From Naegleria gruberi (taxonomy: Eukaryota), in the NCBI GenBank assembly GCA_000004985.1, contig GG738877.1: a DNA stretch of 64,000 bases. One strand, written 5' to 3'. This document shows positions 1 to 63,452 of the stretch, piece after piece. The stretch's first letter is position 1. The number at the start of each line of letters is the position of its first letter. The notes below the pieces were generated by a model. The model saw nothing but the letters and a program-made list of their open reading frames with translations. It made no database searches and was not told where the DNA came from. Position numbers and translations under genes: made by a program.

Positions 1-333
1 CAAACCCAAACCCAAAGGCAAACCCAAACCCAAACCCAAACCCAAACCCAAACCCAAACCCAAACCCAAACCCAAACCCAAACCCAAACCCAAACCCAAA
101 CCCAAACCCAAACCCAAACCCAAACCCAAATCCAAACCCAAACCCAAACCCAAACCCAAACCCAAACCCAAACCCAAACCCAAACCCAAACCCAAACCCA
201 AACCCAAACCCAAACCCAAACCCAAACCCAAACCCAAACCCAAACCCAAACCCAAACCCAAACCCAAACCCAAACCCAAACCCAAACCCAAACCCAAACC
301 CAAACCCAAACCCAAACCCAAACCCAAACCCAG
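1..333. repeat. Terminal telomeric repeat array (CCCAAA)n, G-strand TTTGGG, with a single variant at ~131
   Basis: Perfect 6-nt periodicity read directly from the sequence. The C-rich strand is on top at the left end, the orientation expected for a left chromosome terminus. Confidence 0.9.
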
Positions 334-3587: not shown

Positions 3588-4469
3588 ATGAAGCGTAATG
3601 TAACCTGTTTAAATGATTGTTACCCAACTCAATCCTTTATCTATGTATTCCTTATTGGTAATGGAAGTATTTATTTGAAAGATTCTGATTTTGCAACTTC
3701 AAAAATGAATCTGTTGGTCTTTGGAAAGACTAAGAATATGATTGAGTTTGAACAAATAAGAGCAAGTATGAATGACAGATGGGAATGTGTACATTTATGG
3801 TTAATTGGTCCAGATAACAGCAGCAATAGTATTGAGCTTGTTAGGGAGATACTAATAGGAAAGTATTCAAGTAGATTTATTGATGAAACTGAGTTGAATT
3901 TCGCCGGTCTAAACAGAGTTCTTCCTGACCAGGAAAAGTTATTAGTCCCTTCAGATATGCTCGATGACTTTATCTATAAGAAGCAACATTTCATTGATTG
4001 GACAACCAAAACTCTATTCAAGTCTGCTTATGAAAGAGGAGAAAAAGTCTTGAGACCATCATTTTCTAGTGATGTTAACTTGGTTTTACATTCAATCTAC
4101 TCTGTCGTGTATGAATACTTAGATCTTTTAAGCGATGAAGATGATACTGTTTTATTTATACGTCCAGAAAATACTGAATTAGTATTGGAGGAAATGGATT
4201 TGCTAAACGGTTTTGAGTCTACCAGCAATAAGGATCACAGCACATTAGGGTACAACATTATTGTGAGAGAAAGATTTCCTGATGACGATATGATTGAAGT
4301 CAATGTAAACAGCCCAACAACAATCATGTATATTTTCAGATACGATGAAAAGGAAAGTAACGAAACCTTTGACATTGTTAAAAAAGTGGAAATATTTGGA
4401 GAGCCAACTTGGGCAATCGGCATTAGAAAAAAGGTTATCATGACAAATACTCTGATTTTTAAACAATAA
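3588..4469 (+). CDS. Hypothetical protein. The frame stays open upstream to ~3459 without an ATG, so the 5' end is probably an unseen upstream exon
   Basis: 293-aa ORF with coding-like composition. The upstream in-frame extension (...KEIVVIGTPIVKLLEEM...) reads like coding sequence. Confidence 0.4.
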   Translation: MKRNVTCLNDCYPTQSFIYVFLIGNGSIYLKDSDFATSKMNLLVFGKTKNMIEFEQIRASMNDRWECVHLWLIGPDNSSNSIELVREILIGKYSSRFIDETELNFAGLNRVLPDQEKLLVPSDMLDDFIYKKQHFIDWTTKTLFKSAYERGEKVLRPSFSSDVNLVLHSIYSVVYEYLDLLSDEDDTVLFIRPENTELVLEEMDLLNGFESTSNKDHSTLGYNIIVRERFPDDDMIEVNVNSPTTIMYIFRYDEKESNETFDIVKKVEIFGEPTWAIGIRKKVIMTNTLIFKQ

Positions 4470-5381: not shown

Positions 5382-7985
5382 GTGTCTCACACAAGCAAAA
5401 AGAAAAAAATGGCCCAAGTGACACCTCTAGAAGTGGATGAAGTTTACGATGAAGAAGATAATTTTCTACAGGAACAAACTGTGAAGAGCTCGACCAATTG
5501 TTGTTGCTCCATCAACACAGTACTGGTAGCCATGACATCTTTAATAATCCTATTCTGTGTTTTGGTATTATCGGCTGTGTGGGTCTCAGCATTCAGTGTC
5601 CAAGTTGAGGAATTGAGTAATACGGTGAGACAAGAACACTTCGACAATATGTATTCAGCCACAACAGACTATTTGAAAACCATGTTGATAATGACAGAGT
5701 CTGTGAAATCGCAATTGTACACTGGATTTGATTTTAAGAATCAAACTCTCATAGCAGATCACACCTTTAGATTGTACAAGATGGAACGAAAGAATTTGGG
5801 AGATTGGGCACATGCCATGTTTGTTGGTTCTTCTATGGGTGATGCCTTTGGTATTTCCAGTTACAAAAACAATCCAATGTACATGAATATTACATATGGT
5901 CAAAATCAATTATATTGGTTATGTTTAAATTGGCAAAAGTTGGATTATTGCAAGAAAAACTCAACAACTCCAACAATGACTTTAGCTCCATTCAAGAATA
6001 TTCAAATTCTATACAATGCAGCAGCTTCAAATCCAGGTGGTTTTGCGTTTAGTCCTTCATTTATTGATTCAACCCATCCTTCATTGGTTTTGTTTGGTTG
6101 TGTGTCATCTTTTACACAAGGTTACATACCTCCAGGTAAAACCTTTAGTAATTATGTTTCTGTCTTGTTTGGTTCTGCAGAAATTACCAGTTTTCTAGTG
6201 GAAGCTTCATCCTCAATTCCAGGAAGTGTCACTTTTATCATTGAAAGAAACACAACGTACCTGCTCTCAACAGATAATCCTGCAAAGGCAACTGTGAAAT
6301 TCACCAATGGTACGAGTATCAGATATACAGTTAACAATTATGGTGGAAAGGTGTCAGAGATTGGAACTGAAGTAGCTAATCAACTGGGTTCTAAATTTGA
6401 TTCATTACCGTGTAACAATTACACTACACTTATTGTAAAGGGTACATACACCAGTGTCAAGAGACTTTGTACAAGTGAAGGAATTGATTGGTAAGTAGTT
6501 GAATTGAAATATTTCTCAATATTATTTAACACTAAACTTTCAGGGTATTCGTATTGAGTGTACCACAATGGAATTACATTGGATCTATGCTTATTGCCAT
6601 TATCGGTGCAATCGTTGCGTCTGTAATTATCATCTTTTTGGGAATAATCATTGCAGTCTTCTTCTCCTTCAAAATTGTAAAACCATTTAAAAACTTGATA
6701 GCTGCTTTCCAAAATGTATCGAATATGGAATTGGATGATTTGAAATTATACAAGACTTTGTTCTCTGAGGTCAAAACTCTGCAAACTCATTTCGTTGGAA
6801 TGGTTGACAAGATTAAACTTTACAGACAATTCATTCCACCTCATTTGTTAAGTAAATTGGATGATAATGAAGATATAGTACAAGAATCAGCTTCTCAAAT
6901 ATCTGTCAAGAAGGAAGAACCAAAGAGTTTCGCCCACTCCAATAGTGAAACTAAGGTTGACATGTCCAGTAGATCAATAACAACTCCAACAACAAATTCG
7001 AAACTCGATGTCAAGAAACAATTATCTGCCAAGAATATGTTCTCGTTGCACCTTGAGAAGAAACCCATTTCAGTCATTGGTGTCTGTATGCAAGGCATTA
7101 ATAGATGGTTCGTTGATCTAGCTCCTGAAGTGAGTGTTGATTTACTCGGTGGTTTATATGATCAGATTATGCAAATTTCCAAACCAAGTAATGGACAAGC
7201 ATGGAAATTTGAAAATGAAACTTTACTGATAACATTCAATGCATCTACCAATCAAAATGCTCACGAACTCAAATCCATTCAAACTGCATACACTCTATCG
7301 ACAAAACTAAAGGATTATACAAAGGTGAAACTCTTGAAGAATAATGCCTTTGCAGATCAACAAGAATTAACAGTTGACTTTTCTACAAAGATTGCAATTG
7401 CAACACAAGAGTGTCTATGTGGTAATATTGGTACTAAACAAGCAATGAGCTTTTCAATTCAAGGATCCATTCAGCAAAACATTGAAATGTTATTAGAAAC
7501 TGCTATTAGACTTGATATTTCAATTTTATTTGCATCTGAATTGAAATCAAAGGTCGATACCAAATATCAATTTAGATACATTGAAACTAAACAATTACTA
7601 GCCGACAATGTATTTACAGTTCCAGACAGATACAAACAATCGAATATTTTCAAAGAAGATTCATTGTACGAATTGGGTCTTTGTAATCAAGTGAACATGG
7701 ATGGTAAGTATTACAAAATACGTGTGAATAATATTTTAACACCTCTCTCTCAAAACTTTAGAATGGATGTATGAATTGGAAGAAAAGGAAAAGAAAGACA
7801 AGTGGAAGTTTTACAATCAAGCATGTGAATACTATTTCGATAAGGAGTATGATACAGCACTTGAAAGAATTGATGAATATTTGAAAAACTCTGCTAATAG
7901 CACTGATTTGGCAGCTCACAATTTGAGATCAGTGATAATGGATTTACAAGGGAATGCAAATTTCAAACTCAAATCTGTCAAATAA
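5382..7985 (+). CDS. Receptor-type (single-pass, HAMP/signalling-helix) adenylate/guanylate cyclase-like protein with a degenerate cyclase-homology domain. Exons 5382..6490, 6544..7703, 7762..7985
   Basis: N-terminal TM, ~300-aa extracellular region and a second TM (MLIAIIGAIVASVIIIFLGIIIAVFF). The pre-cyclase signalling helix is LKLYKTLFSEVKTLQTHFVGMVDKIKLYRQFIPPHLL, and the CHD-like region is ISVIGVCMQG...ETLLITFNAS...KIAIATQECLCGNIGTK. The metal-binding Asp positions are substituted. Introns gtaagtag..tttcag (6491-6543) and gtaagtatt..ctttag (7704-7761) join the three ORFs in frame. Confidence 0.6.
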
Positions 7986-8095: not shown

Positions 8096-10144
8096 TTATA
8101 GAGTTATTTTGAAAACTTCAATTTCCTCAACTCTGAACTGGTGACTTCCAGCCAAATAACTTTCAGTTTGTTCATTTCTTTCTTGGAATCCTTTTGGCAA
8201 TTCAAAAGCTATACCAAAATTGGATTTTGAATTGTAGTTTAAATTGCAATCACTTGAAATTGTAAAATCATGACCTGGTTTGAGTAACATAACACCAAAG
8301 GTTGGTAATAAACCTTCTTGTAAAACGGTAGCATTCCGCAATGTAAAGGAACTTCTCTTGAATTTATGAAATTGTGCTCCTGATTCCTTTACAAATTTGA
8401 AAATAAATGCTGAACTATCTTCCACAACTTCTCTTTGTTTAGGAGATTTCCATGATTTTGAAGTAAAACCACCGAATATTTGATTGTGCTCTGCCGATTT
8501 GATAATTGTCAAAGTTGCACCTTGGTTATCACACTTTGAATGAAAGTCAATTGCTTTAAAACCATCCCTTGATCCTCTGTATAATAATTGTGGAACTAAT
8601 TGAGTGCCAGTATTCGAATACAATTCTTTTGAAATGGTGTCTGAATTCGTATCATCATAATAAATTTCATTAATAATATTAGATATCAAAGTGAAAGGAA
8701 TGAAACCCTTAATATTTGTGAAAACATTACTTGTTCCTTTTAAGGAAGTTAAAAGTTGAAATTCAACTTGTTCAAAACTACTTCCTTTAAAAGAAGATAA
8801 ATCTGTCACTTCTCTCAAATCTGCATTCTTGATAGTACAATTATTGAATACATTACCATTCATCAAATTTACATTTTCCAAGTTGCAATCTCTAATATTT
8901 GAACCAGTGAAATCACAAGATTTCATAAAACTGTTTGAAAAATTACAACCACTCAATTCACAATTTTGAAAATTGGTGTTTGATAAAGTGCAATGATTGA
9001 AATCACACCCTTTCAGATTACTTCCTTGAAATTGTGTCAAATTCAAATCCATTCCACTGAAATCATATCCACAAAATTCAGTCCCACGTAGATTGGAATA
9101 TTGAAGTAAATTCTTTCGAAGGTGTTGAATGCCAAATTGTTGACATGAACCAGCAAGCAATAGTTTAAATTTAACATCAATGCTCTTTTCCACAATTCCA
9201 AACTTTAGCCAATTAAGGATTGAATAAAATACAGTTAAATCACAATCAATGAAATAAATTGGGGCATCGAATTTTGAATTAAAAGATGTTTGATAACATG
9301 GATATTCACCTGTGAACATTTTCTTGAATACATTGTCAGATTCTCTGTCATTATGAATGAAATCTCCCAATGCAACTGTAATGACAGTTCCTCTGACATT
9401 TAAGTGAATTGGTTTGTTGCAATTTTCCAATTTCTCTCTAGTATAAACTTGGTTCGCAAAGTTTTTCTCTTTCAATTCCAATTGTTGAGTCAATATTTCA
9501 TTTCTTTGATTCCATTCTTGAAGCAACGTTTCTTTCTTTTCATTGAAACCACTTGTAATTTCCTCAACAAGTTTTTTGGTATCATTAGTCAACTTTTGAT
9601 TCAATTCTTCATATTTCCTTTCCAACTCATCTGATTTTTCTTGATAATCTTGTTGTAAACTCTTGAGTTTTTCTTGATAATCACCCTCAAGTTTCCTCTT
9701 TAATTCATCTGCCTCAAAATACGCCTCCAGAAAGGAGCAATACTTTTCCTGGTGGATTTTCAATTCTCCCCTCAAGACTACATTCTTACACATTCGACAT
9801 TGAACTTCCAATTTGTCCAACATGTTTTTAATACTCTTCACACTTGAACAATTCTTCTTGAAATCTTCACCTCTACAAATTGGACAATCATGAACATTTT
9901 CAACACAGGTGGAACAGAAGGTGCTGCCACAAGATCCGTGTGAGGTTGGATCGATAAAGGGAAGAAAACAAATGGGACAAATTAATTCTTCATCAATGTT
10001 CTTGTCGATGTATATGTATTGTGGATCTAGAGAAGAGGAGGAATCAGTATTCTCTGCACTTAAAGTGCTTTCATTATGCACTTGAGAATTGACTTTCATG
10101 TATTGCAACGAGATTGTTTTTTTTCCATAATTATTTGTTTCCAA
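8096..10144 (-). CDS. Multidomain RING finger - TRAF-type zinc finger/coiled coil - BTB/POZ (KCTD/T1-type) - pentapeptide-repeat - TLDc protein (KCTD9-like core)
   Basis: CPICFLPF...CPICR RING motif. The BTB region NVRGTVITVALGDF...YFIDCDLTVFYSILNWLKFG is present. Pentapeptide repeats (CDFNHCTLSNTNFQNCELSGCNFSNS...) follow. The C-terminal TLDc signature is LLYRGSRDGFKAIDFHSKCDNQGATLTIIKSAEHNQIFGGFTSKSW. Confidence 0.75.
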   Translation of the reverse strand: METNNYGKKTISLQYMKVNSQVHNESTLSAENTDSSSSLDPQYIYIDKNIDEELICPICFLPFIDPTSHGSCGSTFCSTCVENVHDCPICRGEDFKKNCSSVKSIKNMLDKLEVQCRMCKNVVLRGELKIHQEKYCSFLEAYFEADELKRKLEGDYQEKLKSLQQDYQEKSDELERKYEELNQKLTNDTKKLVEEITSGFNEKKETLLQEWNQRNEILTQQLELKEKNFANQVYTREKLENCNKPIHLNVRGTVITVALGDFIHNDRESDNVFKKMFTGEYPCYQTSFNSKFDAPIYFIDCDLTVFYSILNWLKFGIVEKSIDVKFKLLLAGSCQQFGIQHLRKNLLQYSNLRGTEFCGYDFSGMDLNLTQFQGSNLKGCDFNHCTLSNTNFQNCELSGCNFSNSFMKSCDFTGSNIRDCNLENVNLMNGNVFNNCTIKNADLREVTDLSSFKGSSFEQVEFQLLTSLKGTSNVFTNIKGFIPFTLISNIINEIYYDDTNSDTISKELYSNTGTQLVPQLLYRGSRDGFKAIDFHSKCDNQGATLTIIKSAEHNQIFGGFTSKSWKSPKQREVVEDSSAFIFKFVKESGAQFHKFKRSSFTLRNATVLQEGLLPTFGVMLLKPGHDFTISSDCNLNYNSKSNFGIAFELPKGFQERNEQTESYLAGSHQFRVEEIEVFKITL

Positions 10145-15343: not shown

Positions 15344-17200
15344 ATGTTGCAACAACAACTCAATCAGACGAACCATTGCACTGTAGTGTTGCATCTAGAT
15401 TTGTACTTTTCATCCAATTTACTCTCCACTAAAATACAATCCATTCCTCTCCGATATAAATATGACTTGATCATGAAACCAATTTTGAAATATTACAATT
15501 CCGATAATGATGATTATGATTATGATGATGATTTCGATATTAACGATCCAATTTGCCTCCTTCAAGGACTTTTATTAAAAATTGATGTTATTCGAGATAA
15601 AAGGTATATTTACGATCAAATAATAGAGTACAAATGGGTTGCTTGTAGTTTTAGAGAGGATTTTGGGTTATTGAACGATAGAGATTTGGCCATGAAACAT
15701 GCAAGTATTGGCATTATTGTTGAGGAATTTAACAATGACAGAGAAATTGTAATGAATGCTGTGAAAGAAACAGGAAATGGACTTTCGTATGCTTCAGAAG
15801 AATTGAGGAATGATTTTGAATTTGTGAGTGAATTGTTGGAACATGTTAATGTTTTGAATGAGGCATCAGAGGAATTGAGAGATAATAAGGAACTTGTAAT
15901 GTCACTTGTAAAACATTGTGGAGAGGCTCTTGAATATGCTTCTGATCGATTGAGAAATGATTTTGATGTTGTGTTGGCAGCTGTCAAACAAAATGGACGA
16001 GCTCTCGCATTCACAACAATAGAACTACGGAGCAATAAGGAAATTATATTGGCAGCTTTGCAATCATTTTCGCATGCATGTAAAATTGCAATATTGGACT
16101 CATTTACAAATGATAGAGATTTTATGTTTAAAGTATCTTTAGAGGATGTGTATATACTAAGGAAAGCATCTCAAGAAATTAGAAACGATAGAGAAATATT
16201 CCTCAATGCAGTTAAAATTTCTCCATACATATTCAGGGATACTTCAGATGAATTGAGGAATGATAGAGAACTAGCCATCTTGGCAATACAATCGGAGCCA
16301 TCAATGTTAGAATATGCATCAGATAATTTGAAAGATGATGAGGAAATTGTTGCATTGGCACTTTCTTCTGATGGACGTGCAATTAGACATGTATCAGACA
16401 GATTAAGAAATGATGTTGAATTTCTTCAGAAAATATTCCATAGTAGTAAGAGTGGGACAATATTGAAATATATTCCAGAAATACTCAAAAGTGATAGAGA
16501 TATCGTATTGGAATCTGTTAAACGTGATGGATACAATTTGGAACATGCCTCAAATGAACTGAAACTTGATAGAGAAATAGTATGGGAAGCAGTGAAATCA
16601 GCAACCACAGCTATACAATTTGTACCTCAAGAATTATTAAGAGAAGCCTTTATTCATGCACTTCAATTCCGTGGTGAACATTGGGACTATGATTTTTTCG
16701 AATTTGCACCTCCTGAATTCAAGAACGACAGAGAAATAGCATTAACATATGTCAAATATCATCAACGAGCACTATCCCATTTAAGCAATCAGTTTAGAGC
16801 TGATAGAGAAATAGTGTTGGAAGCTGTAAAACATTTTGGACCAAACGTACTTGAATTGGTAGATGCTCAATTCAAAAACGATATTGAAATAGTCAACTTG
16901 GCAAGAAGTAAAGGAGCTCTTACAAAATTATCAATTGAAGACCATTCAAACAGAGAAAAAGTTCTTCAAGCTTTCAAAGATGAAATAGACATTGAATATC
17001 TTACAACCTCTTTGAAGAATGACAGAGAGATTGCCATTGGATGTGTAAAGCAAAATGGATTTTGGTTACAGTATTTACCTTACAAATTTAGAAGTGATAG
17101 AGAAATAGTATTACTTTCATTTAGAGATACTAAAAGTTTAAATCACATGTCTTTGAAGTTGAGAAATGATAAGGAAATTTTAGAAAAATCGAAAAGGTGA
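15344..17200 (+). CDS. DUF4116-type tandem-repeat protein (~24-aa repeats, xELRNDREIVLxAVKQNGxALxYAS). The alternative start MKPILKYY is at 15473
   Basis: More than 15 consecutive repeats with an invariant (L/F)RNDRE(I/L) core are read directly in the ORF. Confidence 0.7.
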   Translation: MLQQQLNQTNHCTVVLHLDLYFSSNLLSTKIQSIPLRYKYDLIMKPILKYYNSDNDDYDYDDDFDINDPICLLQGLLLKIDVIRDKRYIYDQIIEYKWVACSFREDFGLLNDRDLAMKHASIGIIVEEFNNDREIVMNAVKETGNGLSYASEELRNDFEFVSELLEHVNVLNEASEELRDNKELVMSLVKHCGEALEYASDRLRNDFDVVLAAVKQNGRALAFTTIELRSNKEIILAALQSFSHACKIAILDSFTNDRDFMFKVSLEDVYILRKASQEIRNDREIFLNAVKISPYIFRDTSDELRNDRELAILAIQSEPSMLEYASDNLKDDEEIVALALSSDGRAIRHVSDRLRNDVEFLQKIFHSSKSGTILKYIPEILKSDRDIVLESVKRDGYNLEHASNELKLDREIVWEAVKSATTAIQFVPQELLREAFIHALQFRGEHWDYDFFEFAPPEFKNDREIALTYVKYHQRALSHLSNQFRADREIVLEAVKHFGPNVLELVDAQFKNDIEIVNLARSKGALTKLSIEDHSNREKVLQAFKDEIDIEYLTTSLKNDREIAIGCVKQNGFWLQYLPYKFRSDREIVLLSFRDTKSLNHMSLKLRNDKEILEKSKR

Positions 17201-26206: not shown

Positions 26207-28171
26207 TTAATCCAAATCAGTAATATATGTTTGTTTAGGAATCACACAAATGCCATTCTTTTCCAACAATACTTCCTCATCTTGCTTGTAATACTCAACA
26301 AACATTTCCACAATATTCTGAGCTCGCAAAGTATTGAAGGTATCACTAGTGATGTGAACTTGATTTGGTTTTCCAGTTGCCTCAATCAATTGAGTAGTGG
26401 CCACTTCAGGACCAAACAAATCATAAGTTCTCTTTGTCTTTCCAACCACTGCTGCAAAAACTTGATTATTATTTGATGTGTGAATTCCAATTCTGACCTG
26501 AATGCTTCCACACTCAATGTCCTTCTTCTTTTCCATCACTGATTTCAATTCCTTGATCATTAATATACCTGCCTTAACACAGTGATCAGCATGTGTCAAA
26601 CCATTCGAACTGTCAATGATGGTTGGCACTTGAGGTCCCCTCTTCTTTTCCTTATATAATCCACTACCAACAAAGTAACAATCTCCAATGGTTTTAATCT
26701 TTTCCAATCCTTCAACTTGTTTTCCATAGACAATATCATCGAATGCAGAGAAGATTTCATGCAAGAGTTTCACAATTTCTGATGGAGGTTTTCCATTAGA
26801 AAGTGCAGTAAATCCAACGATATCACAATACATGAGTGAACATGTTGGAATGGTATCGAATACAGTTTGACCCATTGTTAAACGTTGTACAACATTTTTT
26901 GGAAAGATCTTTTCAGTAATCTTGTTCATTTGTTCTTCTTTTGTGACCATTTGTTTGGCATCACGAATGAAAGCAACAAAGGACGAAACTGAGGTTAATG
27001 GATCGATTATTTCAGAAACTCTGAGCTCAATTCGAACAGATTTACCACTCTTATTGACTGCTTTGAGTGCACGTACTTGATCTACGACTCGTTTCAGATA
27101 GCCATCATGAAGATTTCTAATTTTGGAAGGTACCAACATTTTGATATTCTTACCAACAATTTCTTTTCTCTGATATTGAAATGTTGTGGTAGATGCCTTA
27201 TTGAATATCAAAACAGTTCCCTTATCATTAATTCCAATAATTGGAACAACCGAAAGGTCAGTAATTGTTTCGGCAAATTGAATCGAAGCAAGTTTTTGAG
27301 CATCTTCTTGGGATTGCTTCATTGGTTGCATATACATGGCAAAGTGAATTTGATTTAGCTTATTAAGGACTACCAAATTCGTCTTCATTTGAAAAATTCG
27401 TTTTTCTGTCACTGATTTTCCTGTCAATTGTCGAGATTTCTTTAATTCATCACGTCTCTTTTGTTTTTCTTCCGGAGTGATCAGAGAAATTGGTAGAATC
27501 ACATTCGCCACATTATTCAGTGCTTGAATTTGTGGATTATTTTCAAAAGTTTCTTCATCCATTCCAATATAATTTTCAATTAAACTTCGAACATCCATTG
27601 TCGATTCTGCTGACAGCACCTCACTCAAATATTCACCCATAATTGAGAAGGTAAATAATCCAAATAAATCTTCAGCTTCTCTATTTAAATATTCGATTGT
27701 CAAATTCGAATCGAATATTAATATTGGAAATCCACATGTATAAAGTTGATTCACTAGCACATTCAATTCCAAATAATCTTCTACTCTTGTACTTGGATAC
27801 AAATCTTCAAAATCCTGACCTTCCATCCCAGAAGAAGCTGACGAAGTTGACTGAGTGAAAGATGACATTGAGCTACGCATTGATTGTTCACTTGCTAAAG
27901 ATTCTTTAGTTCTGGATCTTTGAAGATTTCCAACAAATCGTGAACTAATACCTCTATTTAATTGATTTCTGGATTTTCTATGTAAATTTGACATTGAGGA
28001 ACGATTAGAATCACTGATTACTGACATGTTGTCATCACTTGATTTCTTTTCGTATGACATTCGAAGTTGAGCAAGTGGAGGATTAGGAGTTAGAAGAGTG
28101 GGGGATGATAGTTTGCTGGCATCTTCCTCTGGTTCTGGTAGATCTTTATGTTTGAGAAAACGTTTAATCAT
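26207..28171 (-). CDS. Class III nucleotidyl (adenylate/guanylate) cyclase with a PAS-like domain
   Basis: The cyclase catalytic core has both metal-binding Asp residues: YCDIVGFTALS, KTIGDCYFVGSGL, RIGIHTSNNNQVFAAVVG, YDLFGPEV. An upstream PAS-like segment is VPIIGINDKGTVLIFNKASTTTFQYQRKEIVGKNIKMLVPSKIRNLHDGYLKRV. Confidence 0.8.
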   Translation of the reverse strand: MIKRFLKHKDLPEPEEDASKLSSPTLLTPNPPLAQLRMSYEKKSSDDNMSVISDSNRSSMSNLHRKSRNQLNRGISSRFVGNLQRSRTKESLASEQSMRSSMSSFTQSTSSASSGMEGQDFEDLYPSTRVEDYLELNVLVNQLYTCGFPILIFDSNLTIEYLNREAEDLFGLFTFSIMGEYLSEVLSAESTMDVRSLIENYIGMDEETFENNPQIQALNNVANVILPISLITPEEKQKRRDELKKSRQLTGKSVTEKRIFQMKTNLVVLNKLNQIHFAMYMQPMKQSQEDAQKLASIQFAETITDLSVVPIIGINDKGTVLIFNKASTTTFQYQRKEIVGKNIKMLVPSKIRNLHDGYLKRVVDQVRALKAVNKSGKSVRIELRVSEIIDPLTSVSSFVAFIRDAKQMVTKEEQMNKITEKIFPKNVVQRLTMGQTVFDTIPTCSLMYCDIVGFTALSNGKPPSEIVKLLHEIFSAFDDIVYGKQVEGLEKIKTIGDCYFVGSGLYKEKKRGPQVPTIIDSSNGLTHADHCVKAGILMIKELKSVMEKKKDIECGSIQVRIGIHTSNNNQVFAAVVGKTKRTYDLFGPEVATTQLIEATGKPNQVHITSDTFNTLRAQNIVEMFVEYYKQDEEVLLEKNGICVIPKQTYITDLD

Positions 28172-39862: not shown

Positions 39863-42544
39863 ATGCTGCTAACAAACTCTACATCAACAACAATGAATTC
39901 ATCATCAATAACAACTTCATCAATTAGAGCCAATGATAAGGATGGCTTACTTTCTCGTGTTCTGGTCTTTCAAACTTCCACAAACATGAGTGGAAAGAAC
40001 AAGTATTGGCAATTTTGCATCATTTCCCAACACGATCACGACGATGATAATTCTTCTTCATCTTCTGATGAATCAACATCAAGTAATACAACAACAGCAT
40101 CAACAGACACTAACAATAATTTATTCTCCTCCTCCACTACCACAACAGCAACTATATACTATCTTCAATCTAGGCACGGTATTACTACCAAAGACTCACA
40201 CTCTGGTAAAATTCATACAAGTGGAGGAGCTTGTTATCAGAAAGCCTTTTCAAGTGAATTACAAGCACAGAAGGAACTCTTGTTAAGAATTCACTCTAAA
40301 CTCACTGATGGTTATGTGTGGATTTCAAATAGAAAGAAGAGAAAGTTTCCAATAGAAGAATTAACTCAACAAGTGAATGATAAACTTCAAGAACAATACG
40401 ACAAGTTTAAGAATATGTTTTCCAATAAGAAGAAGAATTCAAATAGTTTACCTAGGGTGGCTTCTCCACAAAGATTTACTAACATGGTCATTAGAAGAAT
40501 GGGATTGAGTCCTAGTAGAAACATTCCTTCTCTCAAGACAAGAATTGATAAGAAAAAGAGAAAGCAAATGGATAAATCCTTCAATAGAGAACAATTACTC
40601 AAGTTGGCTGAATTGTCTTCTTCATCATCATCGGAAGAGGAAGAAGAAGATAAAAGACCAAGAACTGTTGCCAATAAGAGAAAAAGAAACAAACAACAAA
40701 AGAGAAAGTACAAATCTGCTTCATCTTCATCAGAAGAAAATCTTTTGTCTGAAGATGAAATTACTCCAAGAATTAGAACATCCAAACAAGTTAAAAAGAA
40801 GAGGAAACCAACAGTATCTAGTCCTGCTTCTAATAATTCTACAAGTGTTGCTCCAACTAGATTATCATTTGGTAATATGAATGAAAATGATTCAGATTCA
40901 GATTCTGAACATGGTGATAATGATGATGGTTTATCTGGATTTGAAAGAATTTCTACACCTGAAAGGTTTAGATCTTTTGATAGAGTTCACTCACCTGGAA
41001 TGGTTTCTGAAATGGACTCTGATTATGAGAATAGATCATTTAGTGCTTCTCCAATGATTAATAATCATCGTAATAACGATCAAGATGATGATAGTTTCTT
41101 GTTGGGTGGAGGTGGAGCTGATTTTATGGATTCATCACCATTTGATTATTCAAGTATTCCAACAGTTGAGTCATCTAGTACAATTTCCAAATTGGAAGAA
41201 AAGATTAAAAAGTTGAATGAGAATCTTTCAAAGGAAAGTGAAAGAGCTAACATGCTTTCTCTTGAGAAGAATTATTTAGAAAATCAATTGAAGGAACAAC
41301 AAGAATTAGCTTGTCAACAAAAACTCTCACATGACAAGTTGGTTGAAGAACTCTCACAACAATTACAACAAATTTCTAATGATCAATTAGAAGATACCAA
41401 GAAATTCCTTGCCAGAGAAGAGGAATTTAAAATAAGAGAGGAAGTATTGTATAATAGAGAACAACAAGTCTCATCTAGGGAATATTTATTGAACGAGATG
41501 GAAATCAAATTACAACAAGAACAAGAAAAGTTGACAAGACAATTAGAAGAATTGTCTTTCCAAAAAACTAATATCGAAACTATGGAAAAGGAATTGAATG
41601 AAAGAAGTCAACAAGTATTGCAATCTGAAAAGGATCTCCAAAATAGAATTGAGCAACACAACTTGACAAAAGACGAGGAAACCAACAAGTTGAATCAAAT
41701 GGAGCAAGATTTTTACGAAACCATGCAAAGATTAGAACAGGAAGTTCAAAATAAGTGGTCAGAATTTGAAACTTTGAGAAATAATTTTGAACTCGATATG
41801 GAAAGAAGAAATCAAGAAATTTCTCAACTTGATCTCGAATTGGAACAAAAGAGGGTAAGAGTAGAAGCTGATTTAGAAAGTGTCAAACAATCATTTGAAC
41901 AAGAAAAGAAACACCACCTCTATAATATTGAAACAAGACAATTACAATTGAATTCTCTCGATGAATCTATCAATGAAAAACTTGCTGATTTGGAACTGAG
42001 ACAAGCTTCTTTCACAACAGAAAAGGAGTCCTTCCAAGCTTTGATCAAACAACGTGAACAAGAATTGAATGAAAAGCAAGGTCAACAAGAACTTCAAGCT
42101 CAACATTTGAAATTTTTAAAGTACCAATTAGATACAAGAGAAAAATCATTTGAAGAAGCTTCTACACAGTTTAACGCAATCAGGTTAGAGACTGAAAATT
42201 CTCTCAAATTGAAATCAGACACTCTTCACAATCATTTACAAGAACTCTCAGAAAGAGAAAAGTCATTTGAAGTTTCTCTTGCCAAATTCGAAAAGGAAAA
42301 GTCACAATTCTATGAAATTATCAAGAAGAAAACAATCATGGAAAATCAATGTAAAATTTTGGCTCAACAATTGAATGAAAAACAAGTGGAATTCCAACAT
42401 GCTCTCTCTGAATGGATGGCATCAACCTCCTCTCAAGATGAATACTCAATCATGGCAACTGATGAGGAAACTTCTATAATTTCCTCTGCTCCAATTCCTT
42501 CCTATATGGCCAATGATGATACAGATAATAGCCAATATTTTTAA
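39863..42544 (+). CDS. WGR-like domain plus long coiled-coil protein, with a K/R/S-rich middle region
   Basis: The N-terminal KYWQFCIISQHD...IYYLQSRHGITTKDSHSGKIHTSGGACYQKAFSSELQAQKELLLRIHSKLTDGYVW fits the WGR pattern. The C-terminal ~450 aa are heptad-rich (EEKIKKLNENLSKESERANMLSLEKNYLENQLKEQQEL...). Confidence 0.55.
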   Translation: MLLTNSTSTTMNSSSITTSSIRANDKDGLLSRVLVFQTSTNMSGKNKYWQFCIISQHDHDDDNSSSSSDESTSSNTTTASTDTNNNLFSSSTTTTATIYYLQSRHGITTKDSHSGKIHTSGGACYQKAFSSELQAQKELLLRIHSKLTDGYVWISNRKKRKFPIEELTQQVNDKLQEQYDKFKNMFSNKKKNSNSLPRVASPQRFTNMVIRRMGLSPSRNIPSLKTRIDKKKRKQMDKSFNREQLLKLAELSSSSSSEEEEEDKRPRTVANKRKRNKQQKRKYKSASSSSEENLLSEDEITPRIRTSKQVKKKRKPTVSSPASNNSTSVAPTRLSFGNMNENDSDSDSEHGDNDDGLSGFERISTPERFRSFDRVHSPGMVSEMDSDYENRSFSASPMINNHRNNDQDDDSFLLGGGGADFMDSSPFDYSSIPTVESSSTISKLEEKIKKLNENLSKESERANMLSLEKNYLENQLKEQQELACQQKLSHDKLVEELSQQLQQISNDQLEDTKKFLAREEEFKIREEVLYNREQQVSSREYLLNEMEIKLQQEQEKLTRQLEELSFQKTNIETMEKELNERSQQVLQSEKDLQNRIEQHNLTKDEETNKLNQMEQDFYETMQRLEQEVQNKWSEFETLRNNFELDMERRNQEISQLDLELEQKRVRVEADLESVKQSFEQEKKHHLYNIETRQLQLNSLDESINEKLADLELRQASFTTEKESFQALIKQREQELNEKQGQQELQAQHLKFLKYQLDTREKSFEEASTQFNAIRLETENSLKLKSDTLHNHLQELSEREKSFEVSLAKFEKEKSQFYEIIKKKTIMENQCKILAQQLNEKQVEFQHALSEWMASTSSQDEYSIMATDEETSIISSAPIPSYMANDDTDNSQYF

Positions 42545-61679: not shown

Positions 61680-63452
61680 ATGGAAGACGATTTTGCTGTT
61701 GTGATTGTTCATCTTGATCAAACACCAAAAAGCTCGCTTCTTCTCTCTCGATATCGAGAAAGATTTTTGGATGTGAAATACATGTCAATTCTTGCAAAAG
61801 CTATTCGAAACTCACAATCAGAACGCAATATTTATATGTCAATGGATAAGAAATGGAAATTTGATTTATTCATGATGAGAAAATTCTTGGAATGTAAACC
61901 ATCAAATTTGGAGAAACCAAACGATTTTCAATACGAAAAGAAACAAATTATTGAAAATTGTGATTATTTGAAACAAGTTGGTTGGTTGCGCAGTGTTGAT
62001 AAAGAAACAATGCTTGAATGTTCTAAGAAAATGGAAATTCATGATGTACTTTCGTGTTGTCGTCAAGATTTTTTAAGAGATAGAGAGTTTCTAATAGCTA
62101 TTCTAAAGAATGCGAAACTCTCTTCGAATAGATATCAGTGTTTCTATTCATTATTTAAAGATTCTAATTGGTGTATGGACAGAGAAATTCTTGAGTTACT
62201 GGCTAGTAAATATGGATATGTGCCACATGTCAATAATTTGGAAAAGGATTTTGAATTAGGTGTGATGGCTGCAAAAAGTGGACAACGAATCCATTCAAAT
62301 TTTTCATATTTACCAGATAATTGGAAAGAAACAAGAGAATCAATATTAATGGCTTTTGAAATTGATCCAGAATGTCTTGAGCTAATTTCAAAATCTTTTA
62401 GAAAAGATAAAGAACTCATGATGCAAATAATTCAAAGTGAAAAAGGAATTCCACAAAAAATTGCAAAACATTTGGATGAATCATTGCTAAAAGTGAGAGA
62501 ATTTGCAATTTATGCCTTGACCCATGATTCATCGATTGAATATCTTGTGAAAATTCTGAAATTGGATAAGGAAATGTTGAAAATTATTGCAAAGAGGGAT
62601 GCATATCATTTTCCAACGAATCATTCTTATAGAAATGATAGAGAATTAATGATTGAAATGCTCAAATGTGGAGTTTCATATGAAAAGTTTGACGAATCTC
62701 TTCAAGATATGCAAATTGTAAAAGAATCATTGATTTATATGAGATTTCCAGTTTCCTTTTCATTTATCAAATTGGAATTGAGAAAAGATAGAGAATTAAC
62801 CAAGATGGCTCTAGAAATTAATCCACACATATTCAGATACATTTATTTTGAATTCAAATCTGATTTAGAAATAGCTCTATTGGCCATCAGAAAACTGCCA
62901 AACAATCTTCAATTTATGACTACAGCTTTCAAAAAGAATCCTGAAATTATATTACCAGTACTTGAGCTAGATCCTCTCACTCTACAATATGTCGATCCTT
63001 CCATTGAAAATTATCACGAACTTGTAATGAATTGTGCGAAAAGAGATCCCGCAACATTTCGATTTGTCAAGGAACAAGATCCATTCCTTCCTCAAATTCT
63101 TTCAATTGTACCCCAGTGTTTTCACTGTATTCATGCAGATGTTCATGGAAGAGAGAGATTTAAATATTTGGAATTTACTTTACAGTATGATGTTTCAGTG
63201 AGTAGATTTTATTCATCTTATGAAGTTGCACCCTTTTTTTCAAAGTATCCTGAGATTCTTCTCTACTTGTCCTATGTTCCAATAGAACATTATGACGATT
63301 ATATTGGGGAAGATCAACTCGAATTCATTTTCAAAAGAGGAGATTTGAGAATTACACACACTAAAAAATTGATGAATAGAGAGCTCATGTTGAAAATATT
63401 CCATGATTATTCAATTGGTGATTTACAGATACGTCCGACTATTAAAAGATAA
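61680..63452 (+). CDS. DUF4116-type tandem-repeat protein (paralogue of 15344..17200)
   Basis: Repeats with an (F/L)R(K/N)D(K/R)EL core, e.g. FRKDKELMMQIIQ, LRKDRELTKMALEINPHIF, YRNDRELMIEMLK. Confidence 0.7.
   Translation: MEDDFAVVIVHLDQTPKSSLLLSRYRERFLDVKYMSILAKAIRNSQSERNIYMSMDKKWKFDLFMMRKFLECKPSNLEKPNDFQYEKKQIIENCDYLKQVGWLRSVDKETMLECSKKMEIHDVLSCCRQDFLRDREFLIAILKNAKLSSNRYQCFYSLFKDSNWCMDREILELLASKYGYVPHVNNLEKDFELGVMAAKSGQRIHSNFSYLPDNWKETRESILMAFEIDPECLELISKSFRKDKELMMQIIQSEKGIPQKIAKHLDESLLKVREFAIYALTHDSSIEYLVKILKLDKEMLKIIAKRDAYHFPTNHSYRNDRELMIEMLKCGVSYEKFDESLQDMQIVKESLIYMRFPVSFSFIKLELRKDRELTKMALEINPHIFRYIYFEFKSDLEIALLAIRKLPNNLQFMTTAFKKNPEIILPVLELDPLTLQYVDPSIENYHELVMNCAKRDPATFRFVKEQDPFLPQILSIVPQCFHCIHADVHGRERFKYLEFTLQYDVSVSRFYSSYEVAPFFSKYPEILLYLSYVPIEHYDDYIGEDQLEFIFKRGDLRITHTKKLMNRELMLKIFHDYSIGDLQIRPTIKR

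What the first reader, a model, noticed from the sequence alone, without database searches (positions are those of the whole stretch)
5382..7985. A receptor-like membrane protein has a cyclase-homology domain lacking the canonical catalytic residues
The architecture is that of sensor cyclases: TM, a large extracellular domain, TM, and a HAMP/signalling helix (LKLYKTLFSEVKTLQ...YRQFIPPHLL, the motif that precedes the catalytic domain in receptor guanylyl/adenylyl cyclases). A cyclase-homology-like domain follows. However, the two metal-binding Asp positions read ...IGVCMQG... and ...LLITFNAS..., and the Arg of the N..R transition-state pair appears replaced (QQNIEMLLE). This looks like a pseudo-cyclase that may act only as a regulatory or heterodimerising partner. 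The extracellular domain (~300 aa, Cys-containing, N-glycosylation sites) is unassigned and could be a Cache/CHASE-type ligand sensor.
Basis: partly seen in the sequence, partly recalled or inferred. Interest (0 to 1): 0.6.

Follow-up and report, generated by a model that had tools for sequence, protein, structure and literature searches.

The report
Naegleria sensor receptor with dead cyclase domain
This Naegleria gruberi gene encodes a membrane receptor built like a bacterial-type sensor adenylate cyclase, but its cyclase domain has lost the residues needed to make cAMP or cGMP, and it belongs to a large, undescribed protist family that shares this loss.

Summary
The three-exon gene (5409..7985, +) encodes an 821-aa protein identical to an NCBI "predicted protein" of Naegleria gruberi. 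Its layout is TM1, a roughly 300-aa ectodomain, TM2, HAMP, a cyclase-transducing element (CTE), a disordered linker of about 55 aa, a cyclase-homology domain (CHD) and a three-helix tail.

Pfam detects none of these domains. Profile and fold comparisons do:
- The ectodomain is a double-Cache (dCache_1) sensor. Foldseek returns almost only dCache ligand-binding domains.
- The C-terminal domain is a class III CHD. hhalign gives 99.8%, E 5e-29, and the TM-score to CyaB is 0.80.

The catalytic centre is degenerate:
- Metal Asp 1 is Cys542.
- Metal Asp 2 is Glu586.
- The transition-state Asn is kept (N673).
- The transition-state Arg is Leu677.

The protein is not an isolated case. An exhaustive profile search finds 507 cluster representatives at E<=1e-10, from Naegleria, Willaertia and uncultured protists. 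Of 105 aligned members, 2 have Asp at the first metal site. None has Arg in the favoured register. All have a 30-90-aa insertion between CTE and CHD.

The most likely reading is a ligand-gated pseudo-cyclase that signals through protein contacts. A partnership with the PAS-cyclase 18 kb away is unsupported.

The parts
5409..6490 (+). Exon 1 (aa 1-360 plus two bases of codon 361): N-terminal cytosolic stub with a CCC motif, TM1 and most of the ectodomain
   Evidence: the spliced product is 100% identical to the NCBI N. gruberi protein.
6491..6543 (+). Intron 1 (53 nt, GTAAGT...CAG)
   Evidence: The junction restores the conserved EGIDW-V.VLSVPQWNY motif.
6544..7703 (+). Exon 2 (aa 361-748, partial codons at both ends): TM2, HAMP, CTE, linker and CHD
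7704..7761 (+). Intron 2 (58 nt, GTAAGT...TAG)
   Evidence: The junction restores the family motif DEWMYEL.
7762..7985 (+). Exon 3 (aa 748-821 plus TAA stop): helical C-terminal tail
5517..5594 (+). TM1 (aa 37-62)
   Evidence: Kyte-Doolittle peak 2.8; part of helix 35-104 in the model.
5595..6556 (+). Ectodomain, a divergent dCache_1 double-Cache sensor (aa 63-365; the span includes intron 1)
   Evidence: The family profile hits dCache_1-HAMP proteins. The ectodomain model has pLDDT 91.4. Foldseek against PDB lists almost only dCache ligand-binding domains such as PctD, Tlp3, TlpQ, TlpA and PctA-C, at probability 1.0.
6566..6661 (+). TM2 (aa 369-400)
   Evidence: Kyte-Doolittle peak 3.2.
6662..6817 (+). 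HAMP domain (aa 401-452), with hallmark Pro408 and Glu436
   Evidence: hhalign of 109 family HAMP regions against Pfam-positive HAMPs: 95.7%, E 9e-9. P408 occurs in 108/111 members and E436 in 111/114.
6818..6865 (+). CTE-like motif LYRQFIPPHLLSKLDD (aa 453-468); the most conserved stretch of the family
   Evidence: Information content 2.53 bits, the highest of all segments. P459 occurs in 117/117 members. CTE definition from PMC9552081.
6866..7030 (+). Disordered Ser/Lys/Thr/Glu-rich linker (aa 469-523), inserted between the CTE and the CHD
   Evidence: pLDDT is below 50 for residues 467-522. Conservation is the lowest of all segments. The distance from the CTE Pro to the Asp1 position is 83 aa here, 57-121 in 110 relatives, and 27-29 in canonical relatives.
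7031..7696 (+). Degenerate class III cyclase-homology domain (aa 524-745)
7085..7087 (+). Codon for Cys542, at the position of metal-binding Asp 1
7217..7219 (+). Codon for Glu586, at the position of metal-binding Asp 2
7478..7492 (+). Codons for N673 to L677 (NIEML): transition-state Asn retained, Arg replaced by Leu
7697..7982 (+). C-terminal tail (aa 746-821; the span includes intron 2): DEWMYEL motif plus three helices, TPR-like
   Evidence: Helices 750-773, 777-790 and 797-820. The DEWxYEL motif is conserved in the family. The tail aligns to the tail of the canonical dCache-HAMP-cyclase P0005.

Best explanation
The gene encodes a two-pass plasma-membrane receptor. It descends from bacterial-type dCache_1-HAMP-class IIIb adenylate cyclases, and its cyclase domain has become a pseudo-enzyme.

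Shown:
- The domain order is dCache_1 ectodomain, TM2, HAMP, CTE, a disordered linker of about 55 aa, a CHD fold and a three-helix tail.
- The CHD lacks the first metal-binding Asp (Cys542) and the transition-state Arg (Leu677). The second metal Asp is Glu586.
- The same losses run through a family of hundreds of protist proteins.
- In that family the CHD, HAMP and CTE remain conserved.

Inferred:
- The protein does not make cAMP or cGMP on its own.
- A small-molecule ligand binds the membrane-distal Cache module. The signal passes through TM2 and HAMP to the highly conserved CTE helix.
- The output is a change in protein-protein contacts made by the tethered CHD dimer and the DEWxYEL/helical tail. 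These may act as a scaffold or as an allosteric regulator of other signalling proteins, rather than through nucleotide cyclisation.
For: Identity and gene model.

CHD homology: hhalign 99.8%, E 5e-29, with no canonical sequence on the query side; TM 0.80 to CyaB, also Cya2, CyaC and Rv1625c.

Catalytic degeneracy, for this protein and for 105 aligned relatives:
- Asp at the Asp1 site in 2/105 and Glu in 6/105.
- Arg at position 677 in 0/105, which is always L/M/I/V, and at the alternative register 676 in 10/105.
- The substrate Lys is kept in only 5/105.
- The canonical controls P0005 and P0155 show D, K, D, T, N, R in the same alignment.

The phosphate-binding Lys of the canonical 'KGK' hairpin aligns to Leu-Ala-Asp, with a 14-residue insertion there.

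Evidence against decay:
- The search returns 507 representatives at E<=1e-10 and 110 at E<=1e-30.
- There are at least six intact N. gruberi paralogues, plus members in N. lovaniensis, N. fowleri and Willaertia.
- CHD information content (1.51 bits) exceeds that of the ectodomain (1.25), and HAMP/CTE is highest (1.89 and 2.53).

Sensor: dCache_1 by profile and by fold. HAMP.

Every family member has the insertion that separates the CTE from the CHD. This fits an output no longer based on direct mechanical control of a catalytic dimer.
Against: - No activity, binding or expression data exist for any member.
- Glu586 and Asn673 are retained. Many relatives carry Asp at the Asp2 site (34/105) and an acidic residue two positions after the Asp1 site (38/105), so an unconventional metal site cannot be excluded.
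- The Asn/Arg register has a one-residue ambiguity.
- No downstream partner has been identified, so the output mechanism is inference only.
- Homodimerisation was not modelled.
Confidence: 0.55

Rival explanations
1. It is a heterodimerising subunit. The dead CHD pairs with the CHD of a catalytically competent cyclase, possibly the PAS-cyclase in this window. It either completes one asymmetric active site or tunes it allosterically, as in mammalian C1/C2 and chytrid NeoR/RGC.
For: - Class III cyclases commonly work as asymmetric heterodimers with one degenerate regulatory site. NeoR-cat and RGC2-cat are each inactive alone but active together (PMC12264004).
- This protein keeps Lys582, Ser665 and Asn673, three of the four residues of the 'C2-like' half.
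- The PAS-cyclase at 26207..28171 keeps both metal Asp but lacks Asn and Arg, so it might need a partner.
- The long flexible linker would let the CHD reach other partners.
Against: - It lacks the Arg of the C2-like half and the Asp1 of the C1-like half, so neither composite site would be canonical.
- Lys582 is not conserved in the family (5/105), and no relative shows a complementary residue pattern.
- dCache-HAMP receptors signal as homodimers (established knowledge).
- The PAS-cyclase is 18 kb away with unrelated genes between, and gene proximity has little meaning in a eukaryote.
- The PAS-cyclase also lacks Arg, so the pair would have none.
Confidence: 0.22
2. It is a nucleotide-binding but non-catalytic sensor. 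The degenerate pocket binds ATP, GTP or a cyclic nucleotide as an allosteric input, by analogy with degenerate GGDEF domains, and so integrates an intracellular cue with the extracellular ligand.
For: - The pocket-forming fold, the GNxGT hairpin and a basic residue at position 662 (K/R in 107/111 relatives) are conserved.
- The degenerate site of heterodimeric RGC appears to bind nucleotide and regulate activity.
Against: - In this protein and its closest paralogue position 662 is Met.
- The base-specifying Lys and the phosphate Lys are not conserved.
- No binding data exist.
Confidence: 0.1
3. It is still an active adenylate or guanylate cyclase that uses a non-canonical catalytic set, for example Glu586 plus another acidic residue for metal binding.
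For: - Glu586 and Asn673 are retained.
- Relatives often have Asp at the Asp2 site and Asp or Glu two residues after the Asp1 site.
- One paralogue (P0018) is annotated 'adenylate/guanylate cyclase', and N. lovaniensis members are named 'Guanylate cyclase domain-containing protein'.
Against: - No active class III cyclase lacking the first metal Asp is known to me (own knowledge).
- This protein has Gln, not an acid, at the +2 position.
- Arg, the phosphate Lys and, in most relatives, the substrate Lys are all missing.
- The database names are automatic domain labels, not tests.
Confidence: 0.07
4. It is a decaying relic, a pseudogene-like remnant of a former cyclase with no function.
For: - It lies in a subtelomeric position.
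- The family is fast-evolving, and the best non-self match is only 38% identical.
Against: - The spliced ORF is intact at 821 codons.
- HAMP, CTE, CHD core and tail motifs are conserved across hundreds of proteins in several genera.
- The models are high-confidence folded domains.
Confidence: 0.03

Closest known systems
Bacterial dCache_1-HAMP-class IIIb adenylate cyclases (for example metagenomic P0005; M. tuberculosis Rv2435c is cited as a dCache-containing cyclase in PMC4822843)
   Same: The domain order is the same: TM, dCache_1, TM, HAMP, CTE, CHD and a helical tail. hhalign from TM2 to the tail gives 97.6%, E 4.8e-12. The closest solved CHDs are the bacterial cyclases CyaB, Cya2 and CyaC.
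   Different: P0005 has the full D/K/D/T/N/R set and 27 residues between the CTE Pro and Asp1. The Naegleria protein has C/K/E/S/N/L and 83 residues. It also has eukaryotic features: introns, N-glycosylation sequons and conserved ectodomain Cys pairs.
Pan-eukaryotic Cache1-HAMP-nucleotidyl cyclase III subfamily, noted in Euglena and N. gruberi (Ebenezer et al. [quoted passage not shown] 2016, PMC4822843)
   Same: The same architecture is described at the level of domain composition, in the same organism.
   Different: Those papers describe Pfam-detectable cyclases and do not mention catalytic degeneracy. This protein and 9 of 10 relatives tested have no Pfam cyclase or Cache hit above threshold. 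It therefore probably escaped both surveys. Naegleria has several Cache-type receptors of this kind, not one.
Asymmetric class III cyclase dimers with a degenerate site: mammalian tmAC C1/C2, soluble guanylate cyclase, and chytrid NeoR/RGC1-2 heterodimers (PMC12264004)
   Same: A CHD has lost catalytic residues yet stays conserved, because it is needed as a dimer partner or regulatory site.
   Different: In those systems each subunit keeps one complete half-site, either the Asp pair or Lys/Asp + Asn/Arg. Here both halves are damaged in the same chain, and in all relatives, so no canonical site can be assembled.
Degenerate GGDEF/EAL domains and receptor pseudokinases (own knowledge)
   Same: The concept is the same: a signalling enzyme fold is kept as a non-catalytic receptor or scaffold module downstream of a sensor.
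   Different: The folds and families differ. The resemblance is functional analogy only.

Membership tests
Class III nucleotidyl cyclase catalytic domain (CHD, PF00211) | Homology and fold of the cyclase-homology domain | tested here: met
   hhalign 99.8%, E 5e-29 against 15 Pfam-positive CHDs. Foldseek TM 0.80 to CyaB 3r5g.
Class III nucleotidyl cyclase catalytic domain (CHD, PF00211) | Scores above Pfam's gathering threshold (21.9 bits) | tested here: not met
   No PF00211 hit at E<=10. Relatives score 16.5 and 21.3 bits at best.
Class III nucleotidyl cyclase catalytic domain (CHD, PF00211) | Two metal-binding Asp residues | tested here: not met
   Cys542 and Glu586. In the family, Asp at site 1 occurs in 2/105.
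Class III nucleotidyl cyclase catalytic domain (CHD, PF00211) | Transition-state Asn...Arg pair | tested here: not met
   Asn673 is present and Arg is Leu677. In the alternative register the pair is Gln672/Met676. There is no Arg in either register.
Class III nucleotidyl cyclase catalytic domain (CHD, PF00211) | Substrate-specifying pair (Lys + Asp/Thr for ATP; Glu + Cys for GTP) | tested here: inconclusive
   Lys582 and Ser665 look like class IIIb. Lys is kept in only 5/105 relatives.
Class III nucleotidyl cyclase catalytic domain (CHD, PF00211) | Cyclase activity | not testable with these tools
   Needs an enzyme assay.
dCache_1 (PF02743) extracellular sensor | Double PDC/Cache fold with a long N-terminal stalk helix, located between two TM helices | tested here: met
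   Model pLDDT 91.4. The top 50 Foldseek hits are almost all dCache ligand-binding domains. TM segments flank the domain.
dCache_1 (PF02743) extracellular sensor | Sequence homology to Pfam-positive dCache_1 proteins | tested here: met
   The family profile retrieves dCache_1-HAMP proteins at E 1e-5 to 6e-5 database-wide, aligned over the ectodomain, TM2 and HAMP. The Pfam model itself does not reach threshold.
dCache_1AA amino-acid sensors | Ligand motif R-x-W-Y ... Y ... D in the distal module | tested here: not met
   In the alignment to Mlp24/Mlp37, 'RPWY' corresponds to 'ILYN', Tyr is Phe, and only the Asp (D220) is kept. The motif residues are quoted from my own knowledge of Gumerov et al. 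2022.
HAMP (PF00672) | Two-helix unit of about 50 aa directly after TM2, with conserved Pro in AS1 and Glu at the start of AS2 | tested here: met
   hhalign 95.7%, E 9e-9. P408 and E436 are nearly invariant. The Pfam threshold is not reached.
Cyclase-transducing element (CTE) | Conserved helix of about 19 aa with a central x-h-P motif | tested here: met
   LYRQFIPPHLL. P459 occurs in 117/117 members, and this is the most conserved segment. Definition from PMC9552081. The motif was compared by eye only.
Cyclase-transducing element (CTE) | Fixed position immediately before the catalytic domain | tested here: not met
   There are 83 residues from the CTE Pro to the Asp1 position, 57-121 in 110 relatives and 27-29 in canonical relatives. 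The intervening stretch is disordered.

The most novel reading that the evidence does not exclude
The protein represents a Pfam-invisible family, widespread in protists (hundreds of 50%-identity clusters). In this family Cache or NIT sensors and a HAMP-CTE transmitter are coupled to a catalytically dead cyclase fold plus a conserved DEWxYEL/helical tail. This would be a transmembrane signalling output that does not work through cyclic-nucleotide synthesis. The former catalytic dimer would be re-used as a ligand-controlled docking or allosteric module, and published counts of 'cyclases' in Naegleria and related protists would mix real enzymes with such pseudo-enzymes.
Probability: 0.35. Interest if true: 0.65.

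Novelty: new variant of a known kind. Interest (0 to 1): 0.45.

Why it matters
- Naegleria is noted for an unusually large cyclase repertoire. If a sizeable set of receptor-type 'cyclases' cannot make cyclic nucleotides, models of cAMP/cGMP signalling in heteroloboseans need revision. This includes the pathogen N. fowleri, which has members of the family.
- The family would be a natural example of a class III cyclase fold kept purely as a signalling module, a counterpart to pseudokinases and degenerate GGDEF domains. It combines a recognisable extracellular ligand sensor, an intact HAMP/CTE transmitter and a flexible uncoupling linker, which makes it a tractable system for asking what the CTE and CHD do besides catalysis.
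- Practically, Pfam misses both the Cache and the cyclase domains of these proteins.

Tried and rejected
- Pfam scan of the protein: no domain, only a spurious EI24 hit at E 0.063. Nine of ten relatives also have no cyclase or Cache hit above threshold.
- Word-index homology search with the single protein found only 4 proteins. With the 4-sequence profile it added four distant bacterial-type proteins. A third search with a 51-sequence alignment did not return the family members. Because two canonical cyclases were in that query, its cyclase hits are not independent evidence.
- The afdb50 fold library was unavailable, so there is no structure-based taxonomic survey.
- Amino-acid-sensor motif in the Cache pocket: absent. 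The ligand class is unknown. An amine ligand is only a guess, based on the retained Asp220 and on top structural hits that bind choline, histamine or GABA.
- Tandem paralogues in the window: none.
- PAS-cyclase as a neighbour or partner: it is 18 kb away and itself lacks Asn and Arg. There is no evidence of a link.
- Literature searches for a described pseudo-cyclase receptor family, or for this Naegleria family, found only architecture-level mentions.
- Pseudogene idea: rejected on conservation.
Full report
**Organism and gene model.** The window is AT-rich (about 34% G+C) and eukaryotic. The finding lies in a + strand gene with two short GT..AG introns. Joining 5409..6490, 6544..7703 and 7762..7985 gives an 821-codon ORF. 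Its product is 100% identical over its full length to a 'predicted protein' of Naegleria gruberi in NCBI/UniProt. Both splice junctions restore motifs conserved in paralogues. tblastn finds no second copy in the window.

**Topology.** Two strongly hydrophobic segments (aa 37-62 and 369-400) flank about 300 residues. This stretch carries six N-X-S/T sequons and two Cys pairs (172/181, 335/354) that are invariant among the closest relatives. That fits an extracellular domain. A CCC motif (31-33) precedes TM1.

**What standard annotation sees.** Pfam sees nothing. No domain reaches even E<=10, apart from a spurious EI24 hit. The same holds for nearly all relatives tested.

**The C-terminal domain is a class III cyclase-homology domain.**
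- phmmer against PDB sequences gives P. aeruginosa CyaB at E 6.7e-4. A profile of the four closest relatives gives CyaB at 3.7e-5, Cya2 at 4.8e-5 and a phytochrome-cyclase fusion at 3e-4.
- hhalign of that profile against P0005 gives 97.6%, E 4.8e-12. P0005 is a 725-aa metagenomic protein with Pfam dCache_1, HAMP and Guanylate_cyc. The alignment runs from TM2 through the CHD into the C-terminal tail.
- As an independent test I aligned the CHD regions of 81 family members, with no canonical sequence included. I compared them with 15 Pfam-positive CHDs. The result was probability 99.8%, E 5e-29, over 189 columns.
- An AlphaFold2 model of the whole protein, built from 51 sequences, has mean pLDDT 84.6 and values above 90 in the folded domains. 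Foldseek matches its C-terminal half to CyaB (TM 0.80-0.81), Cya2, CyaC, Rv1625c, bPAC/OaPAC and soluble guanylate cyclase at probability 1.0.

**Catalytic residues.** All alignments agree on most positions.

| Canonical role | This protein | Sequence context | Among 105 relatives aligned in both CHD halves |
|---|---|---|---|
| Metal Asp 1 | Cys542 | VIGVCMQGIN vs canonical FSDIxGFT | Asp in 2, Glu in 6; otherwise K/Y/R/H/L/F |
| Substrate Lys | Lys582 | KFENE | Kept in 5 |
| Metal Asp 2 | Glu586 | KFENE vs canonical KxxGD | Asp in 34, Glu in 10 |
| Substrate Asp/Thr | Ser665 | class IIIb-like | not counted in the 105-member set |
| Transition-state Asn | Asn673 | see register note below | Kept in 45 |
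| Transition-state Arg | Leu677 | QQNIEMLLE | Position 677 always L/M/I/V; Arg at the other register (676) in 10 |

- The family has one extra residue between the conserved Gly668 and the helix. HMMER aligns N673 to the canonical Asn. The ungapped hhalign register gives Q672/M676. The hydrophobic pattern favours the first register. Neither contains Arg.
- The phosphate-binding Lys of the canonical 'KGK' hairpin aligns to Leu-Ala-Asp, next to a 14-residue insertion.
The second Asp was mislocated by three residues and is in fact a conservative Glu.
- The two canonical controls in the same alignment show the full residue set.

**The ectodomain is a double-Cache sensor.**
- The family profile retrieves bacterial dCache_1-HAMP histidine kinases and a GGDEF-EAL protein at E 1e-5 to 6e-5 database-wide. 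The alignments span the ectodomain, the 'G.DW..V..VP' junction, TM2 and HAMP.
- A separate model of aa 62-368 has pLDDT 91.4 and pTM 0.87. Foldseek against PDB returns almost only dCache ligand-binding domains: PctD, Tlp3, TlpQ, TlpA, PctA/B/C, PscC, Mlp24/37 and mmHK1S.
- The top match of the full-length model is the B. subtilis McpB/McpC dCache-TM-HAMP model.
- A 20-sequence ectodomain profile aligns weakly (E about 0.03) to Mlp24/Mlp37. The amino-acid-binding 'RPWY' motif is not conserved and only the Asp (D220) remains. The ligand class is unknown.

**HAMP and CTE.**
- Residues 401-452 align to Pfam-positive HAMP domains at 95.7%, E 9e-9. The hallmark Pro408 and Glu436 are nearly invariant.
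- The following 'LYRQFIPPHLLSKL' resembles the cyclase-transducing element, a 19-aa helix with a central x-h-P motif that normally sits at a fixed distance before the catalytic domain (PMC9552081). It is the most conserved segment of the family (2.53 bits per position, Pro459 in 117/117).
- It is separated from the CHD by a polar, poorly conserved stretch that AlphaFold leaves disordered (467-522, pLDDT below 50). The distance from the CTE Pro to the Asp1 position is 83 residues here and 57-121 (median 77) in 110 relatives. It is 27-29 in the canonical relatives P0005 and P0155.

**Tail.** After the CHD comes a family-specific DEWxYEL motif and three helices (750-820). A comparable tail exists in the canonical P0005.

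**Family.**
- The word-index search suggested only four relatives. The exhaustive profile search of 1.84 billion cluster representatives gave 3191 hits at E<=1e-3, 507 at <=1e-10 and 110 at <=1e-30. Many are full length.
- Named members are N. gruberi paralogues (at least P0002, P0013, P0016, P0018 and P0031), N. lovaniensis, N. fowleri and Willaertia magna.
- One N. lovaniensis member has a NIT sensor in place of Cache, with the same degenerate CHD.
- More distant members, some with N-terminal ankyrin repeats, sit on gene-dense metagenomic contigs. The neighbouring genes there are plainly eukaryotic: Borealin, Zuotin-type DnaJ-Myb, a PH-kinase and EGF/REJ.
- Some relatives carry automatic names such as 'Guanylate cyclase domain-containing protein' or 'adenylate/guanylate cyclase'. 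The protein studied here is unnamed.

**Literature.** Upadhyay et al. [quoted passage not shown] Ebenezer et al. 2019 describe a pan-eukaryotic cyclase subfamily with HAMP and Cache1 domains related to N. gruberi genes (PMC6366073). Neither mentions catalytic degeneracy. My searches found no paper describing this family as pseudo-cyclases. Those searches cover open-access text only.

**Interpretation.**
- What is shown: the architecture; the homology of each domain; the absence of Asp1, Arg and the phosphate Lys; the family-wide nature of these losses; and continued conservation of the CHD core, HAMP and CTE. CHD information content (1.51 bits) exceeds that of the ectodomain (1.25).
- What I infer: the protein cannot cyclise ATP or GTP on its own (confidence about 0.8). 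It acts as a ligand-gated pseudo-enzyme whose output is protein-protein contact through the tethered CHD dimer and tail.
- The heterodimer idea has good precedents in mammalian C1/C2 and in NeoR/RGC, where two individually inactive domains form an active pair and the degenerate site is regulatory (PMC12264004).
- Here, however, both half-sites are damaged in one chain and no relative is complementary. At best the protein could modulate a competent cyclase, not complete one.
It keeps both Asp, the Lys and the Asp but has Ala and Leu in place of Asn and Arg. The two proteins together would still lack the Arg.

**Verdict.** This is a new variant of a known kind: a receptor-type class III cyclase turned pseudo-enzyme, representing a large family that Pfam does not detect. 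Interest is moderate (0.45). Loss of catalysis in signalling folds is a familiar theme. A whole sensor-coupled pseudo-cyclase family with an uncoupling linker is undescribed as far as my searches reach, and it is experimentally testable.

Noticed in passing
window 1-332 and 1803-2236: There are two telomere-like hexamer arrays: (CAAACC)x55 at the very start of the window and (CCCAAA)x72 about 1.5 kb further in. They are the same unit, equal to TTTGGG on the other strand. The receptor gene therefore lies about 5 kb from a scaffold or chromosome end. The overlapping long 'ORFs' at 963-2289 coincide with this low-complexity stretch and may be artefacts of it (not checked).
   Followed up: partly
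window 26207-28171 (- strand): A PAS-PAS-cyclase ORF of 654 aa scores PF00211 at 2.6e-34. It keeps both metal Asp, the Lys and the Asp, but reads VATTQLIE where canonical CHDs read VNLAARLE. The transition-state Asn is Ala and the Arg is Leu. A Pfam-positive Naegleria 'cyclase' may therefore also be catalytically impaired, or may need a partner.
   Followed up: partly
window 8096-10144 (- strand): The convergent downstream neighbour is a single-ORF 682-aa protein. It has a weak RING-finger match (below the Pfam cut-off), pentapeptide repeats and a C-terminal TLDc domain, an unusual combination.
   Followed up: no
window 5499-5507 (aa 31-33): A Cys-Cys-Cys motif lies immediately before TM1 on the predicted cytosolic side and is a possible palmitoylation site. 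Cys also occurs here in some paralogues.
   Followed up: no
P0055 (N. lovaniensis, XP_044546964.1): The same HAMP plus degenerate-CHD plus tail cassette is coupled to a NIT (nitrate/nitrite-sensing) ectodomain instead of dCache. The dead-cyclase module is therefore re-used with different sensors.
   Followed up: partly
L002 929-5662 and 10001-12574: On an uncultured-protist contig, a distant family member (P0063) lies 4 kb from a 1577-aa Peripla_BP/ANF_receptor cyclase with a Pfam-positive catalytic domain.
   Followed up: no
window 15344-17200 (+) and 61680-63452 (+): Two proteins are made largely of DUF4116 repeats, 12 and 6 copies.
   Followed up: no
window 39863-42544 (+) and 3588-4469 (+): Long uninterrupted ORFs of 893 aa and 293 aa have no Pfam match at E<=1e-3.
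   Followed up: no
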